Below are positions 23,154 through 33,265 of a DNA stretch of 64,000 bases, piece by piece. Source of the DNA: Myxococcota bacterium (GTDB lineage: Bacteria > Myxococcota_A > Polyangia > Nannocystales > Nannocystaceae); assembly GCA_039028615.1 (NCBI GenBank), contig JBCCHT010000004.1, forward strand, positions 224,001 through 288,000, in the 5' to 3' direction. The notes beneath the pieces were generated by a model that worked only from the letters and a program-made list of their open reading frames with translations, was not told the DNA's origin and ran no database searches. Positions within the stretch are counted from its first letter, which is position 1; every line of letters starts with the position of its first letter. Made by a program: the position numbers and the translations under genes.

Positions 23154-24539
<1,386 letters not shown>

Positions 24540-26874: not shown

Positions 26875-27846
26875 GTGCAGGCCCTAGGATTTGACTCAGC
26901 ATTCGGCGACGAACGGTTCACTCCACCGACCGAGCACGCGCAGCTGTTCATGCCGCTGCGCCCCGCAGCGAAGACACCCGCGGCGGACCTGTCGCCGTGG
27001 CTCGTGGGCTGGGCCGAGAACGTCGGGCTCACCGAGCACGTATCGCCATCGAGCATCGTCGAGCTCCGGTTCGGCGTGCTCGTCGACGCCGCCTTCCCGC
27101 ATGCCTCCGAGGACCGACGACGGCTCGCGGCGGCCTGGATGCTGCTGCTGTGCCTGCTCGACGACTTCGCCGAGACCCACGAGGGCTCGAGCCGAACGCT
27201 GGCCGCGAGGCTCGAGTGCCTCCAGCTACGGCTCGGCGGCACCCGGCGCCTGGGCTCGAGCCCCGACGTGCTCGGCCGGGCGTGTGACCGCTTCCATCGC
27301 CTGACGACGCGAACGGGCACGATGCATCGCTTCCATCGCGAGGTGGGCACGTTGTTCGCGGCGTACGTCGAGGAGCACGCGTTCCACGGTCACCCACCCC
27401 ACACGGGACTGCAGCGCCATGTCGCGCTGCGCCGAACGACGTCGGGCGTGGCCACGGTCCAGGCGCTATTTCCGTTGATGACCGGCTACCTGTGGCCCGA
27501 ACGGCGCCGCCGAGTCCAACAGCTCGCCGAGTGGGCGAGCGACCTCATCGCGTGGAGCAACGACCTGTGGACGGCCGAGGTCGAGCGAGACACCCGGGCG
27601 CACAACCTGCTGTTCGTCCTCGAACGAGCCCACGGTCTCGAGCCGCTCTACGCCCGCCGAAGCCTGGTCTCCATGCACAACGTGTTGATGCGCCGGTTCG
27701 TGTCGCTGGTGCGGGTCCTGCTCCACAACGACCTCGAGCCCACGACGCGGGCCTTCGTCGCGATGCAGGTGGCCATGGTCCGCGCCCACTACGACTGGGC
27801 CGGGGTCACGGGTCTGTACGCAGAGCTGGCAATGGACCCGCGCTGA
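26875..27846 (+). CDS. class I terpene synthase-like protein with degenerate motifs
   Basis: LDDFAE, RRTTSG, NDLWTAEVE, HNLL, WAGVTGLY. Start may be ATG 26950. Confidence 0.75.
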   Translation: MQALGFDSAFGDERFTPPTEHAQLFMPLRPAAKTPAADLSPWLVGWAENVGLTEHVSPSSIVELRFGVLVDAAFPHASEDRRRLAAAWMLLLCLLDDFAETHEGSSRTLAARLECLQLRLGGTRRLGSSPDVLGRACDRFHRLTTRTGTMHRFHREVGTLFAAYVEEHAFHGHPPHTGLQRHVALRRTTSGVATVQALFPLMTGYLWPERRRRVQQLAEWASDLIAWSNDLWTAEVERDTRAHNLLFVLERAHGLEPLYARRSLVSMHNVLMRRFVSLVRVLLHNDLEPTTRAFVAMQVAMVRAHYDWAGVTGLYAELAMDPR

Positions 27847-28828: not shown

Positions 28829-30118
28829 TTAGAACATCTCGCGGACCCAGCTGGTGAAGCGACGCGCCAGCCCCGGCCCTTCGTCACGGGGACGCATGCC
28901 GCCGCCGACACGCGGCGCGGCCTCGATGGGCATGGGGTCGTGAGTGGCTCCGTAGAGCACCAGACCGACGCCGGTCGAGAACTTGGGGTCCTGAATCATC
29001 CCGGCGAAACCGCCTTCGGTGAGTCGAATCTTCTGACGCCCGGCGGTCGCGGTGGCCACCCCGGTGGGCACGCCCTTGCGAACCGGCATCTGGAAGATGT
29101 CCTCGGCGATCTCCAGCATGCCCTCCATCTGCGAGGCGCCACCGGTGAGCACGAGGCCGCTGGCGGCCAATTCGGCGCACCCGCTCGCGAGCAGCTCCTG
29201 CTGAGCGAGCAGGAAGATCTCCTCGACCCGCGGCTCGATGACCTCGGCCAGGAAGCGACGCTTGAACTCGCGGGGCGGACGGGGACCGACGCCGGGCACG
29301 GCGATCTGGTCGTCCCCCTCGATCATGCTGATGAGGGCACAGCCGTGCTTGCGCTTGATCTGCTCCGCCTCGGCGACCGAGGTCCGCAGCCCATGGGCCA
29401 CGTCCTGGGTGATGCGATGCCCGCCCATGACGATGACCGAGGTGAAGACGTTGCTGCCCTCGCTATAGACGGCCACGTCGGTGGTGCCGCCGCCGATGTC
29501 GATGAGCGCGACCCCGAGGTCCTTCTCGTCGTCGTGCAGCACCGCGGTGGAAGACGCGATGGGCTCGAGCACGACCTCGATGACCTCGAGCCCTGCCCGG
29601 TTGCAGCACTTGATGATGTTCTGGACCGAGGTGACCGCCGCCGTGATGACGTGGGCGCGGACCTCCATGCGCACCCCGTTCATGCCGATGGGGTCGCGGA
29701 TCTGGCCCTGGCCGTCGATCATGTACTCGAGCGGCACGGTGTGGATGATCTGGCGATCGAGCGGAATATTGACCGCCTTGGCCTGCTCGATGACGCGGGC
29801 GACGTCGGTCTCTTCGACCTCGCGCGAGCGCATGCTGACCTGCCCCAGGCTGTTGAAGCCTCGGACATGACCGCCCGCGATGCCCACGAACACCGACTGC
29901 ACGTCGGCCGCCGCCATCTGCTCGGCCTCCTGAACCGCCTGCGCAATCGAGTTGGTCGTGGCCTCGATATTGACCACCACGCCCTGCCGTAGCCCCTCTG
30001 AAGGGCTGGTGCCGACGCCCAAGATCTCGATGCCCGCCTCGGTCACCTCCCCGATGAGGGCGGCGATCTTGGTGGTCCCGATGTCCAAGCCGCAGATGAT
30101 CTCTCCCACCTCTGCCAT
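28829..30118 (-). CDS. ftsA: cell division protein FtsA
   Basis: GLDIGTTK, DIGGGTTD, EVIEPRVEEI, VLTGGAS, FSTGVGL, amphipathic tail FTSWVREMF. Confidence 0.97.
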   Translation of the reverse strand: MAEVGEIICGLDIGTTKIAALIGEVTEAGIEILGVGTSPSEGLRQGVVVNIEATTNSIAQAVQEAEQMAAADVQSVFVGIAGGHVRGFNSLGQVSMRSREVEETDVARVIEQAKAVNIPLDRQIIHTVPLEYMIDGQGQIRDPIGMNGVRMEVRAHVITAAVTSVQNIIKCCNRAGLEVIEVVLEPIASSTAVLHDDEKDLGVALIDIGGGTTDVAVYSEGSNVFTSVIVMGGHRITQDVAHGLRTSVAEAEQIKRKHGCALISMIEGDDQIAVPGVGPRPPREFKRRFLAEVIEPRVEEIFLLAQQELLASGCAELAASGLVLTGGASQMEGMLEIAEDIFQMPVRKGVPTGVATATAGRQKIRLTEGGFAGMIQDPKFSTGVGLVLYGATHDPMPIEAAPRVGGGMRPRDEGPGLARRFTSWVREMF

Positions 30119-30151
30119 GATCGTCTCCGCTGTCGCTTTCCGTCGGGCGGC

Positions 30152-31270
30152 CTAGTGGTACCGGGGCAGCTTGCCCTTGACCTTGCCTTTGCCCTTGTTC
30201 TTCTTGGATTTGTTCTTGCCCGCGTTGGCCTGTAGCTCGGCCTTGCGTGCAGCCTCGGCCGCCCGATCGGCGGCCCGTGCCTCGGCCTCCACCACCAACG
30301 AGGGGGCTTCCTTGGCCGGGAAGAAGCTGGCCACGATGCGATCGGGTCGCCCCGGGGCTCGGCTTCCGTCGAGATGAATCAGTGCGAGCTTCTCCGCCTC
30401 TTCACCGAGGGCGGCTCGCAGCGCGTCGTAGCGAGCGAGCGCAGGCTCGACGTCGCCGCGACCCAGTCGCAGCTGCGTGCCCATCTCCGCGGTGTAGAGC
30501 GTCAGCTCGCCGGTCTCTCCGACGTGCAGCTCCGACAGTCGCGGGCGTCGCTTGTCTTGGTACGCGCCCAGTGCCTCGAGCCCCTCCATCACGCGCTCGT
30601 GCATGAGCTCGGGCCGAGAGAAGAGGCCGGAGTCGTCGAAGCCGGTGAGCACGGGAAGTCGCCCCCGCTCGCCAGCCTCGAGAGCCTTGAAGGACACCCC
30701 CTCGTCGTCGACGAGGACCAGACGCCCCGCGGCGAGCAACACCGCGACCGGCTCGTGCTCTTCCACGGTGACCGACAGGCTGTCCGGCAACACCCGCACC
30801 ACGGACGCCTTGGCCACCCAAGGGTCGGCCGCAATCCGAGACGCGACCTCGTCGAGGTCGAGCGAGAGGATGTTGGTGCCCGGCGACAGAGCCATCAGCT
30901 CACGCAACCGGGCGTCATCGATGTGTGGGGTCGGCTCGTAGGTGAGCCCCCGAACCTCGAAGCGAGGCGAAGTCGTCGCGTACGCGTAGCCCTCTTTGAC
31001 CCCCACCAGCAGGCCCCAGGCGAGGGTCCCGACGATCCCCAAACGCAGGCTCACGCCCGCGATCCGACGGGGCCAGCTCGGGCCACGGGGGGTCGCCTCA
31101 GTGCGACGGGCCTTGCGCAGGGCCGCCGCAGAGCCCCGATCGGCCTTCGTTTCGGCCTTGGAGCTGCTGGGCTTCCGCCGGGCGCCCGTGGTCTGGCGAC
31201 GACGGTTCCCACGTCGGGCCGGACCGGTTCGGCGCTTGGTCAGGCGGGCAGCTAGGCGACTGATCTGCAC
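30152..31270 (-). CDS. ftsQ: cell division protein FtsQ/DivIB
   Basis: Basic N-terminus, one TM helix, POTRA region (GTNILSLDL...DPWVAKASVVRVLPD); directly upstream of ftsA. Start uncertain. Confidence 0.85.
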   Translation of the reverse strand: MQISRLAARLTKRRTGPARRGNRRRQTTGARRKPSSSKAETKADRGSAAALRKARRTEATPRGPSWPRRIAGVSLRLGIVGTLAWGLLVGVKEGYAYATTSPRFEVRGLTYEPTPHIDDARLRELMALSPGTNILSLDLDEVASRIAADPWVAKASVVRVLPDSLSVTVEEHEPVAVLLAAGRLVLVDDEGVSFKALEAGERGRLPVLTGFDDSGLFSRPELMHERVMEGLEALGAYQDKRRPRLSELHVGETGELTLYTAEMGTQLRLGRGDVEPALARYDALRAALGEEAEKLALIHLDGSRAPGRPDRIVASFFPAKEAPSLVVEAEARAADRAAEAARKAELQANAGKNKSKKNKGKGKVKGKLPRYH

Positions 31271-31436
31271 TGGAATTCGCGTCCTAAGCCCCGTTTGGAG
31301 GCCGATTTCGGGAATAACGCCCTCGGCTCGACAACGCAAAAAATCACCAAGCACGAGACCTCGTCCGGCGATTTTGGGGTGGTCGCAGGCCCAGCGAGAT
31401 CCACTCGTAGATCTCGGTCCAAACCCGGCCGCACGA

Positions 31437-31492
31437 AATTCGGCCGAATTCGGCCGAATTGGGCTTGCCACGAGATCGCACTCGCCTACAAT
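31437..31492 (+). promoter_or_regulatory. sigma70-like promoter of the histone gene with upstream 24-bp palindrome
   Basis: AATTCGGCCGAATTCGGCCGAATT (31437-31460), then TTGCCA (31465-70), 16-bp spacer, TACAAT (31487-92). Confidence 0.65.
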
Positions 31493-31563
31493 CGCGAGCG
31501 CGGCGCCCTAGAGTGCCGATCTCGACCGTTACCGAACCCAAGCTGTTCCGCGAGGAAAACCCC

Positions 31564-31773
31564 ATGGCGAAATCGAAGAAAACCGCGAAGAAGAAGGCCC
31601 GTGAAGTTGTTGTCGTTGGCTCGAAGGTCAAGGACGTGATCCGTAACGCTGGCTTGCGCAGCGACGGAGAGCTCGTCCAGGCCGTGTCCGACAAGGTTCA
31701 CGATCTACTCGAGGCGGCCATTGCCCGCGCCCAGTCCAACAAGCGCGGCACCGTTCGTCCCTACGACCTGTAG
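31564..31773 (+). CDS. bacterial histone-fold protein (69 aa) with Lys-rich N-terminal tail
   Basis: GAGGA RBS; MAKSKKTAKKKAREVVVVGSKVKDVIRNAGLRSDGELVQAVSDKVHDLLEAAIARAQSNKRGTVRPYDL; VVxSKVK start, long alpha2, and R-x-T-V-x-x-x-D L2/alpha3 motif. Confidence 0.88.
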   Translation: MAKSKKTAKKKAREVVVVGSKVKDVIRNAGLRSDGELVQAVSDKVHDLLEAAIARAQSNKRGTVRPYDL

Positions 31774-31802
31774 TCGACGATCGGCCTAAAGGCCAATCGA
31801 GG

Positions 31803-31838
31803 AAGGCGGCATCCCCAACCGGGGAGCCGCCTTTCTCT
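31803..31838 (+). terminator. intrinsic terminator between convergent histone gene and ftsZ
   Basis: AAGGCGGC(a)TCCCC-aacc-GGGGAGCCGCCTT followed by TCTCT. Confidence 0.75.
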
Positions 31839-31858
31839 CGTTCGAAGACCGGTTCGAT

Positions 31859-33265
31859 CTAGCGACCGTAGCCGTCTTCGCCCCGGCGCCGCAGGAAGGC
31901 GGGAATCTCCGAGGGATCGGGAGCAGCACCATCGCCTCGGCTCCATCCGGCATGCGAGGCCGAAGCGGAGGGTCGACGACCGGTGGTGCTCATCGTGGCC
32001 TCGCCCGCGACCGGAGTCTGCTGGCGACCGGCGGGAGTCTGCTGGCGCCCCGCGGGAGCCTGCTGACGACCGACGCGAGGGGCCGAGATCAGCGACTCGG
32101 CGGGTGCGCTCGCGTTGGCGTTGGAGTTCGAGTTCATGTTGGTGAACAGACCCGTCTGTCGCTGCGGCACGGCAGCGGGACGCGTGTGCAGCTCGGCGTG
32201 GCCATTGGGGCCCATGGTCCCGGTGGCGAAGACCTGCTGCGACTGACGACGACGCCCGGAGTGGGTCTTGATCGCCTCTTCGATGATGTCCTCGGCCGGC
32301 TCGTGCTGATCGAAGCCAGTGGCGATCACCGTGATGCGCAGCGCCTCGCCCATGTTGTGGTCGATGACCGCGCCGAAGATGATGTTGCAGTCCTCGTGGG
32401 CGGCCTCTTGGATGAGAGAGGCGGCCTCCTCGACCTCGTGAAGCTTGAGATCGGGGCCCGAGGTGATGTTGATGAGGATGCCCTTGGCGCCCTCGATGGT
32501 GACGTCCTCGAGCAGCGGGCTGTTGATGGCCTGCTGCGCCGCGGCGACCGCTCGCCCCTCTTCGGTGGCGAAGCCCATGCCCATCAGCGCGCGGCCCTGG
32601 TCGGCCATGATCGTGCGCACGTCGGCAAAGTCGACGTTGATGATGCCGGGAATGGTGATGAGGTCGGACACGCCCTGCGTGGCGTGCTGGAGCACCTCGT
32701 CCGCGAGCTTGAAGGACTCGAGCAGGCTGGTGCTGTTGCTCGTGACGTCGAGCAGTCGATCGTTGGGAATGGTGATCAGGGTGTCGACGGCCTGCTCGAG
32801 GATCTCGATGCCCTTGCCAGCCACTCGACCCCGTCGGCGCCCCTCGAAGCGGAAGGGCTTGGTCACGACGCCCACGCACAGCGCTCCGCACTCACGGGCC
32901 ACCTGAGCCACGATGGGAGCCGCTCCGGTCCCGGTACCGCCGCCCATGCCCGCGGTCACGAAGACCATGTCTGCGCCCTTGAGGGCCTCGGTGAGCTCCG
33001 AGATGCTCTCGAGCGCCGCCTCGCGGCCTCGGTCCGGGTTCGCGCCCGCTCCCAGGCCGCGGGTCACCGCTCCGCCCAGCTGGATGCGAATCGGCGCGGC
33101 GTTCTTGTCGAGGGCCTGAACGTCGGTGTTGGCGGCCACGAAGTCGACGCCCTCGACGTGGTGTTCGATCATCGTGTTGACCGCGTTGCCGCCGGCTCCA
33201 CCGACGCCAATGACGATGATTTTGGCCTGGTCCGGGAAACAGTCGTCGAGCTCGAAGTGCGCCAT
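31859..33265 (-). CDS. ftsZ: cell division protein FtsZ
   Basis: [38 protein letters not shown]-terminal EIPAFLRR. Start MAHFELD. Confidence 0.98.

What the first reader, a model, noticed from the sequence alone, without database searches (positions are those of the whole stretch)
31564..31773. Bacterial histone with a lysine-rich N-terminal tail
Seen: 69-aa protein with RBS, sigma70-like promoter and terminator, suggesting a dedicated monocistronic gene. From memory, VVVGSKVKDVI and SNKRGTVRPYDL closely match Bdellovibrio Bd0055 and Leptospira histones (short alpha3, RxTxxxxD motif). The extra MAKSKKTAKKKAR tail has six Lys plus Ser/Thr; the characterised bacterial histones I recall lack such a basic tail. 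Inference: a tailed, possibly modifiable histone in a myxobacterium. The ORF track hides it inside a 104-aa frame with the wrong start.
Basis: partly seen in the sequence, partly recalled or inferred. Interest (0 to 1): 0.85.

Follow-up and report, generated by a model that had tools for sequence, protein, structure and literature searches.

The report
Long-tailed face-to-face bacterial histone gene
This is a real, probably highly expressed gene for a small bacterial DNA-packing histone with a lysine-rich tail, but it belongs to a known histone class in which such tails are already described; the less expected part is that many of these bacteria keep it alongside a second, short-tailed copy.

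Summary
The gene is real: 31564-31773(+), 69 aa, SD GAGGA, with a sigma70-like promoter pattern found in 30 of 36 orthologous loci and a 3' hairpin. RNA contigs of a close relative span 31514-31838. The start precedes the tail.

It is a face-to-face (FtF) alpha3 histone like Leptospira HLp (best hit by sequence and fold), not a Bd0055-type dimer: the tetramer residues R55/N59/R61 are kept. The tail is not new. Schwab 2024 reports basic tails in most bacterial FtF histones and classes the Plesiocystis orthologue A6GJS9 as FtF. This scan has also reported tailed FtF histones on other DNA.

Not found in my seven literature searches: the family carries two paralogue groups at fixed loci. Long-tailed A lies at ftsZ/ftsQ (31 of 37 loci) and short-tailed B beside tsaE (62 of 65); 30 genomes have both. 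A's promoter has conserved 10-bp-phased AATT tracts.

Tail modification is untested, no SET domain was found, and no tetramer model could be run. New member of a known kind.

The parts
31437..31460 (.). Three AATT tracts phased at 10 bp just upstream of the -35 box (AATTCGGCCG x2.8); probable UP-like or bent element, possibly a histone-binding site
   Evidence: Tandem repeat at 31437-31464. AATT at -28/-18/-8 from the -35 box; at least one tract in 28 of 30 and at least two in 22 of 30 clade-A promoters, spacing 9-11 nt in 28 of 31 intervals; 117 of 6900 comparable genomic windows hold any. Function is inference.
31465..31492 (+). Sigma70-like promoter TTGCCA-16-TACAAT
   Evidence: 10 of 12 matches. 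A looser pattern drawn from the same loci occurs within 230 nt upstream in 30 of 36 clade-A loci, 0 of 64 clade-B loci and 57 of 6900 genomic ORFs.
31552..31556 (+). Shine-Dalgarno-like GAGGA, 7 nt before the ATG
   Evidence: Sequence; purine-rich AGGA/GGAG/GAAG motifs before the ATG in orthologues
31564..31602 (+). Basic disordered N-terminal tail, residues 1-13 (6 Lys, 1 Arg)
   Evidence: pLDDT <50 for residues 1-13. Clade A tails are 11-23 aa with 4-8 Lys (6 Lys in 29 of 36); clade B tails are 6-12 aa with 1-4 Lys.
31603..31773 (+). Alpha3/face-to-face histone fold, residues 14-69, and stop codon; R55, N59, R61, T63, D68 conserved
   Evidence: Helices 16-28 and 35-58 and a 3-residue alpha3; HLp 9QT0 best by phmmer and Foldseek; invariant columns in 121 sequences
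31799..31836 (.). Long GC-rich hairpin between the converging histone and ftsZ genes; probable bidirectional terminator
   Evidence: z -5.2 and -4.5. A long stem follows the stop in nearly all of 22 loci folded (read by eye). RNA contigs of two runs end at 31838 and 31840. Not called by the terminator scan.
30152..31471 (-). Neighbour: ftsQ, divergent (true start uncertain, probably downstream of the listed GTG); ftsA follows at 28829-30118(-)
   Evidence: Pfam POTRA_1 and FtsQ_DivIB_C; FtsA
31859..33262 (-). Neighbour: ftsZ, convergent
   Evidence: Pfam Tubulin and FtsZ_C

Best explanation
A stand-alone, strongly expressed gene for a face-to-face (FtF) alpha3 histone. SHOWN: gene, start, histone fold, HLp-type interface residues, conserved promoter and locus. 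INFERRED from HLp: two dimers close into a torus tetramer through R55/N59/R61 and the C-terminus, and wrap about 60 bp of DNA without sequence specificity through G19-S20-K21, R27, S33, G35, K60 and R65. INFERRED for the tail: a disordered polycation that adds electrostatic grip on linker or neighbouring DNA, selected for charge (about six Lys) more than for a fixed motif. It is the long-tailed member (A) of a pair. The short-tailed paralogue (B, beside tsaE) is the more widespread copy. A is an accessory, more basic variant (it also has K60 where B has none) that some lineages have lost. Any acetylation would most likely be the general bacterial kind that lowers charge, not a read code.
For: Best solved relative is HLp: E 5e-10 versus 0.045 for HBb; Foldseek ranks 1-2 are 9QT0 and 9QT1. 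HLp R49/S52/N53/R55/D62 (PMC12701072, passage read) map to R55/S58/N59/R61/D68 by the alignment. R55 and N59 are present in 37 of 37 A and 65 of 65 B sequences. The P. pacifica orthologue P0020 (89% identical over 83% of the query, same tail type) is UniRef A6GJS9, labelled 'Face-to-face' in Schwab's supplementary file 3. Codon usage is ribosomal-like: percentile 99.9 of 6911 ORFs for A, 99.7 for B, against 95.6, 90.9 and 7.6 for the three HU/IHF genes. RNA-library contigs span leader, tail and core. 73 of 73 family genomes have a hit. Tail length varies 11-23 aa while the Lys number stays at 4-8. A was not found in any of 34 genomes of four genera, and its absence needs two changes on an FtsZ tree.
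Against: The monomer model is moderate (mean pLDDT 76, pTM 0.51). The genome also has three HU/IHF-family genes, unlike Leptospira, so this need not be the main chromatin protein. RNA evidence is contigs only (95-99% alike, three runs of one study plus one run guessed to be RNA); it cannot give strand, level or ends. B was not found in 7 of 37 A-bearing genomes, three of them 94-96% complete, so 'B core, A accessory' is not strict.
Confidence: 0.75

Rival explanations
1. Histone-variant system with a regulated tail: A and B co-assemble into mixed tetramers, and A's tail Lys/Ser/Thr are modified by dedicated enzymes and possibly read, switching chromatin state with growth, division or development.
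For: Two FtF paralogues with 77% identical aligned cores in this genome; both in 30 of 73 family genomes, at separate fixed loci with different promoters. The genome has one HDAC-family gene, three sirtuins and a ZZ-histone-like third gene. Precedent: mycobacterial HupB is acetylated and methylated (PMC5931751, abstract only).
Against: No SET domain found (the control rang in only 1 of 14 genomes). HDAC and sirtuin families are ordinary in bacteria (controls 9 of 14 and 10 of 14). I did not scan the wider neighbourhoods for modifying enzymes; the immediate neighbours are ftsZ/ftsQ and tsaE. The tail has no fixed length or motif. [quoted passage not shown] A is missing from whole genera.
Confidence: 0.15
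2. A and B are simply redundant dosage copies; the longer tail is lineage drift on an ancestral Lys-rich N-terminus and has little function.
For: Either copy can be missing (A only 7, B only 35 genomes). Long Lys-rich tails also occur in histones of other families of the class (L028-L031) and in a third type (L110-L114), so they are a lineage habit.
Against: The Lys counts of A (4-8) and B (1-4) barely overlap, and tail type goes with core differences (K60 in 36 of 37 A, 0 of 65 B; Cys56 in 60 of 65 B, 1 of 37 A) across many genera, which suggests maintained divergence. Kin are not independent, so this is suggestive only.
Confidence: 0.25
3. Bd0055/HBb-type dimeric histone that bends or coats DNA.
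For: HBb chains rank 3-6 in Foldseek with similar TM-scores; the VVVxSKVK stretch is shared.
Against: It keeps the Arg and Asn that bacterial dimers lack, and has RGT instead of RKT (criteria in PMC11390915 section 8).
Confidence: 0.05
4. The position between ftsZ and ftsQ reflects a functional link to cell division, such as co-regulation through the divergent promoter region.
For: 31 of 37 A loci have ftsZ or ftsQ in the fetched flank, 23 have both; 5 of the other 6 have ftsQ 2-9 kb away on the same contig.
Against: The ftsZ-then-ftsQ-ftsA order also holds where A is lacking (12 of 20 loci checked, no histone hit in any of the 20). The gap takes in other DNA, up to about 23 kb in one A-bearing genome. 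The gene has its own promoter and terminator. Inherited synteny suffices.
Confidence: 0.15

Closest known systems
HLp, face-to-face alpha3 histone of Leptospira perolatii (PDB 9QT0-9QT2; PMC12701072)
   Same: Fold, short alpha2, one-turn alpha3, RD clamp, tetramer residues, and DNA-contact positions; 40% identity over 55 columns
   Different: HLp's N-terminus is short and not basic, and HLp is the only histone in a genome without HU. Here the tail has 13 residues with 6 Lys, and the genome has a second FtF paralogue, a ZZ-histone-like gene and HU/IHF genes.
Plesiocystis pacifica A6GJS9 (PPSIR1_24119) and A6GF99, classed 'Face-to-face' by Schwab et al. 2024 (PMC11390915, supplementary file 3)
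   Same: A6GJS9 is the orthologue, with the same tail type and RGTVRP loop. A6GF99 is probably the second paralogue (sequence not checked); it also appears in the Fig. 1A alignment of the HBb preprint with Enhygromyxa and Nannocystis histones (legend passage).
   Different: Listed only as data rows; in the passages and sections I read, the long-tail/short-tail split, the loci and the promoter are not discussed.
HBb/Bd0055, bacterial dimer histone of Bdellovibrio bacteriovorus (8CMP, 8FVX, 9EZZ; PMC10627809)
   Same: Alpha3 histone fold and the Lys-rich start of helix 1
   Different: About 30% identity; it lacks the FtF tetramer Arg/Asn and a basic tail
HTkC, archaeal FtF histone of Thermococcus kodakarensis (9F2C)
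   Same: FtF class; Foldseek ranks 7-8
   Different: Archaeal, and archaeal FtF histones generally lack tails
Mycobacterial HupB (HU with a Lys-rich tail; PMC5931751 abstract, PMC5676037 search listing)
   Same: Bacterial nucleoid protein with a eukaryote-like tail; acetylation and methylation shown
   Different: HU fold, not a histone fold; an analogy only

Membership tests
Face-to-face (FtF) alpha3 histones | Single histone fold with shortened alpha2 and a 3-4-residue alpha3 | tested here: met
   AF2 helices 16-28 and 35-58, 3-residue helix near the C-terminus; Foldseek best hit 9QT0
Face-to-face (FtF) alpha3 histones | RxTxxxxD motif without a conserved Lys after the Arg | tested here: met
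   R61-G62-T63...D68, invariant in 121 of 121 aligned sequences
Face-to-face (FtF) alpha3 histones | Dimer-dimer residues (HLp R49, N53, R55; profile R48, N52) | tested here: met
   R55, N59, R61 by alignment to 9QT0; R55 and N59 in 37 of 37 A and 65 of 65 B
Face-to-face (FtF) alpha3 histones | Torus-shaped homotetramer (predicted or observed) | not tested
Published data class the orthologue A6GJS9 as FtF and list ipTM 0.829, 0.851 and 0.47 in three successive tables, probably dimer, tetramer and a larger assembly; I did not see the table headings.
Face-to-face (FtF) alpha3 histones | DNA-contacting residues on helix 1, l1 and l2 | tested here: met
   HLp A13/S14/K15/K21/T27/G29/K54/R59 align to G19/S20/K21/R27/S33/G35/K60/R65; by sequence only
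Face-to-face (FtF) alpha3 histones | Wraps about 60 bp of DNA | not testable with these tools
   Needs MNase, tethered particle motion or a structure
Bacterial dimer histones (HBb/Bd0055) | Lack of the FtF Arg/Asn, and an RKT motif | tested here: not met
   Has R55 and N59, and RGT
DUF1931 pseudodimeric histones | Two histone folds in one chain | tested here: not met
   69 aa; the Pfam DUF1931 hit (22.1 bits, cut-off 21.8) covers only positions 21-53 of 138
Eukaryote-type modifiable histone tail | Conserved tail sequence with fixed modification sites | tested here: not met
   Length 11-23 aa and variable sequence; only charge and a few Lys columns are kept
Eukaryote-type modifiable histone tail | Dedicated writers, erasers or readers | tested here: inconclusive
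   No SET domain; one HDAC-family and three sirtuin genes on other contigs; acetyltransferase, bromo and chromo families not searched
Eukaryote-type modifiable histone tail | Modification in vivo | not testable with these tools
   Needs mass spectrometry

The most novel reading that the evidence does not exclude
These myxobacteria run a bacterial histone-variant system. A long-tailed FtF histone with its own conserved promoter and a short-tailed FtF histone form mixed DNA-wrapping tetramers whose composition and tail-lysine modification regulate chromatin, and the phased AATT tracts are a site where the histone wraps and regulates its own promoter next to ftsQA.
Probability: 0.12. Interest if true: 0.8.

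Novelty: new member of a known kind. Interest (0 to 1): 0.3.

Why it matters
Whether bacterial histone tails do anything, or are modified, is open: both crystallised bacterial histones lack a basic tail. Named, described species carry this long-tailed type (Plesiocystis pacifica P0020, Paraliomyxa miuraensis P0069), and many family genomes offer a built-in comparison of long and short tail on a closely similar core. That makes the question testable. The sequence itself does not surprise a specialist, since tailed FtF histones of Myxococcota are in print.

Tried and rejected

The 104-aa frame: rejected, because its TTG precedes the promoter, RNA contigs start at 31514-31521, and Met1 is kept in at least 90% of 121 sequences. 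Three of the 120 listed homologues are called at 95-105 aa; the two shown have unrelated upstream extensions.

A start after the tail: no such codon in this gene. In 14 of 36 orthologues a Val GTG lies in the Val run just after the tail; I did not test it for an SD.

The terminator scan found nothing; the claim rests on folding.

The tsaE labels came from a query translated in the wrong frame and undercount; the corrected counts are.

A first promoter scan of only 110 nt upstream found 9 or more of 12 matches in 17 of 36 A loci. The 30 of 36 comes from a looser pattern read off the alignment of these same loci, so it is partly circular.

The core-only tree (79 distinct cores, 56 columns; ten loci without a parsed start, L033 and four loci without a hit left out) groups 25 A cores at 94/90, just under the star threshold, and leaves B unresolved, so the order of duplication is not shown. 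The FtsZ tree is unrooted FastTree on 38 rows.

RNA runs: 6 listed with word shares of 0.04-0.11, 4 laid. Lack of cover over ftsZ and ftsQ is not evidence of relative expression.

The weak genome hit at C9:20738 (E 0.13; E 2.6) is rejected as chance. Pfam gave no family for the ZZ-histone-like ORF or for the gene after B.

Literature: seven searches gave no paper on the A/B pair or the ftsZ locus. Subscription papers are missing from the library, Alva and Lupas 2019 (recalled) was not read, and the Schwab supplementary figures on tails are an image-only PDF that I could not see; they may show these very tails.

Full report
OBSERVATION. It has an SD-like GAGGA 7 nt before the ATG and the only sigma70-like site in 1.8 kb, TTGCCA-16-TACAAT at 31465-31492. 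After the stop lies a long hairpin at about 31799-31836 (z -5.2) that the terminator scan did not call. The longer 104-aa frame starts at a TTG upstream of the -35 box, and no alternative start codon lies between codons 2 and 24. Of six sequencing runs listed four were laid. Contigs 95-99% alike cover 31514-31838, 31514-31810 and 31515-31840 in three runs of one study, and 31521-31756 in a run guessed to be RNA. This fits a stand-alone transcript that includes the tail, but contigs cannot show strand, ends or level. Codon usage scores at percentile 99.9 of 6911 roughly called ORFs against 19 ribosomal-cluster genes. Only 3 of those ORFs have six Lys in the first 13 residues.

WHAT IT IS. The best solved relative by sequence is Leptospira HLp (9QT0, E 5e-10); HBb/Bd0055 scores E 0.045-0.052 and HTkC 0.069. 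An AF2 model from a 121-sequence alignment has a disordered residue 1-13, helices 16-28 and 35-58 and a one-turn third helix. Foldseek ranks HLp first and second, then HBb and HTkC. The HLp paper (PMC12701072; first two of nine parts, keyword passages and the Discussion read) names R49, S52, N53, R55 and D62 for the tetramer interface and RD clamp. These align to R55, S58, N59, R61 and D68 here, and its DNA contacts align to G19, S20, K21, R27, S33, G35, K60 and R65. By the criteria of Schwab et al. (PMC11390915, sections 7 and 8 read whole) this is a face-to-face histone and not a bacterial dimer.

WHAT IS ALREADY IN PRINT. Schwab et al. list Myxococcota among the main FtF phyla. [quoted passage not shown] Their supplementary file 3 labels P. 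pacifica A6GJS9 and A6GF99 as Face-to-face and A6GGA7 as ZZ histone. A6GJS9 is P0020, 89% identical over 83% of our protein, with the same kind of tail. The HBb preprint's Fig. 1A legend includes Plesiocystis, Enhygromyxa and Nannocystis histones (passages). Against this, Hocher et al. [quoted passage not shown] Earlier notes of this scan report tailed FtF histones in seven other windows and an FtF histone in one more; they are unchecked AI notes and did not set my reading.

FAMILY PICTURE. All 73 family genomes searched have a hit, as do 7 of 16 genomes of other families of the class. The family hits split in two main groups, which I assigned by core tree and locus, not by tail. Group A (37 loci in 37 genomes, 13 of 17 genera) has tails of 11-23 aa with 4-8 Lys, K60 in 36 of 37, and ftsZ or ftsQ in the flank in 31 of 37. 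Group B (65 loci in 65 genomes) has tails of 6-12 aa with 1-4 Lys, no K60, Cys56 in 60 of 65, and tsaE in the flank in 62 of 65. Thirty genomes have both, 7 only A, 35 only B, and one only a third long-tailed type. This genome has A in the window and B at G000:C5 (L002:1492-1686, 77% identical over the aligned part), also with top-percentile codon usage. A tail-free tree groups 25 A cores at 94/90 and leaves B unresolved. At 20 ftsQ loci from the four genera without A (20 of 34 genomes) no histone was found, and ftsZ still lay upstream of ftsQ in 12. On an unrooted FtsZ tree the absence of A needs two changes, compatible with two losses. Kin are not independent, so these counts describe and do not test.

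PROMOTER. The -35/-10 pair is conserved: a pattern read from the alignment occurs in 30 of 36 A loci, 0 of 64 B loci and 57 of 6900 genomic ORFs. Upstream of the -35 box, AATT tracts recur at about -28, -18 and -8: one or more in 28 of 30 loci, two or more in 22 of 30, spacing 9-11 nt in 28 of 31 intervals, against 117 of 6900 background windows with any. The simplest reading is an UP-like, bent activating element (phased A/T tracts binding the RNA polymerase alpha subunit are recalled knowledge, from no call). A wrapping site for the histone itself, or an element of the divergent ftsQ promoter, is not excluded.

MECHANISM. Most likely (0.75) an abundant FtF tetramer wraps about 60 bp non-specifically, and the disordered tail adds charge to hold linker or neighbouring DNA; A is the more basic variant of a partly redundant pair. 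The fold, residues, locus and promoter are shown; tetramer, wrapping and tail role are inferred from HLp. A regulated, enzyme-written tail is possible but unsupported: no SET domain, only ordinary HDAC and sirtuin families, no fixed tail motif, and three HU/IHF genes share the job. HupB shows that bacterial nucleoid proteins can carry functional acetyl and methyl marks (abstract). The confidences of the rivals overlap and are not meant to sum to one.

VERDICT. Observation confirmed; interpretation partly supported. A new member of a known kind. The long-tail/short-tail pair with fixed loci and the phased promoter element were not found in seven literature searches, but image-only supplementary figures and subscription papers were not seen. 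Interest 0.3.

Noticed in passing
L002:1492-1686 (G000:C5:108394-108588, +): Second FtF histone, 64 aa, short tail, downstream of tsaE; this type lies beside tsaE in 62 of 65 family loci
   Followed up: yes
L004 (G000:C1:401867-402895, -): Third histone-fold gene: Cys/His-rich N-terminal part and a C-terminal dimer-type histone with RKT motif, resembling the ZZ histones of Schwab et al.; no Pfam hit
   Followed up: partly
window 28829-33262 (-): ftsZ lies upstream of ftsQ-ftsA, not after ftsA as in the usual order (recalled); the same order was seen in 12 of 20 loci from genera lacking histone A. murC is at 23154-24539 on the opposite strand.
   Followed up: partly
L110-L114 (genus g2 genomes): A divergent histone type with 17-25-residue tails holding nine Lys and an RKTVRAHD loop, in a genus that lacks group A
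   Followed up: no
G000 contigs C46 (+, 545 aa) and C30 (-, 510 aa): Two long ORFs that begin with extended Lys/Ala-rich, linker-histone-like N-termini; families not examined
   Followed up: no
window 32013-32079: 21-bp repeat, 3.2 copies, in the low-complexity linker near the FtsZ C-terminus
   Followed up: no
window 26875-27846 (+): Terpene synthase family 2 gene (Pfam PF19086)
   Followed up: no
group B histones, position equivalent to 56: A Cys next to the tetramer Arg in 60 of 65 B sequences and 1 of 37 A sequences; a possible redox-sensitive site near the dimer-dimer interface (inference)
   Followed up: no
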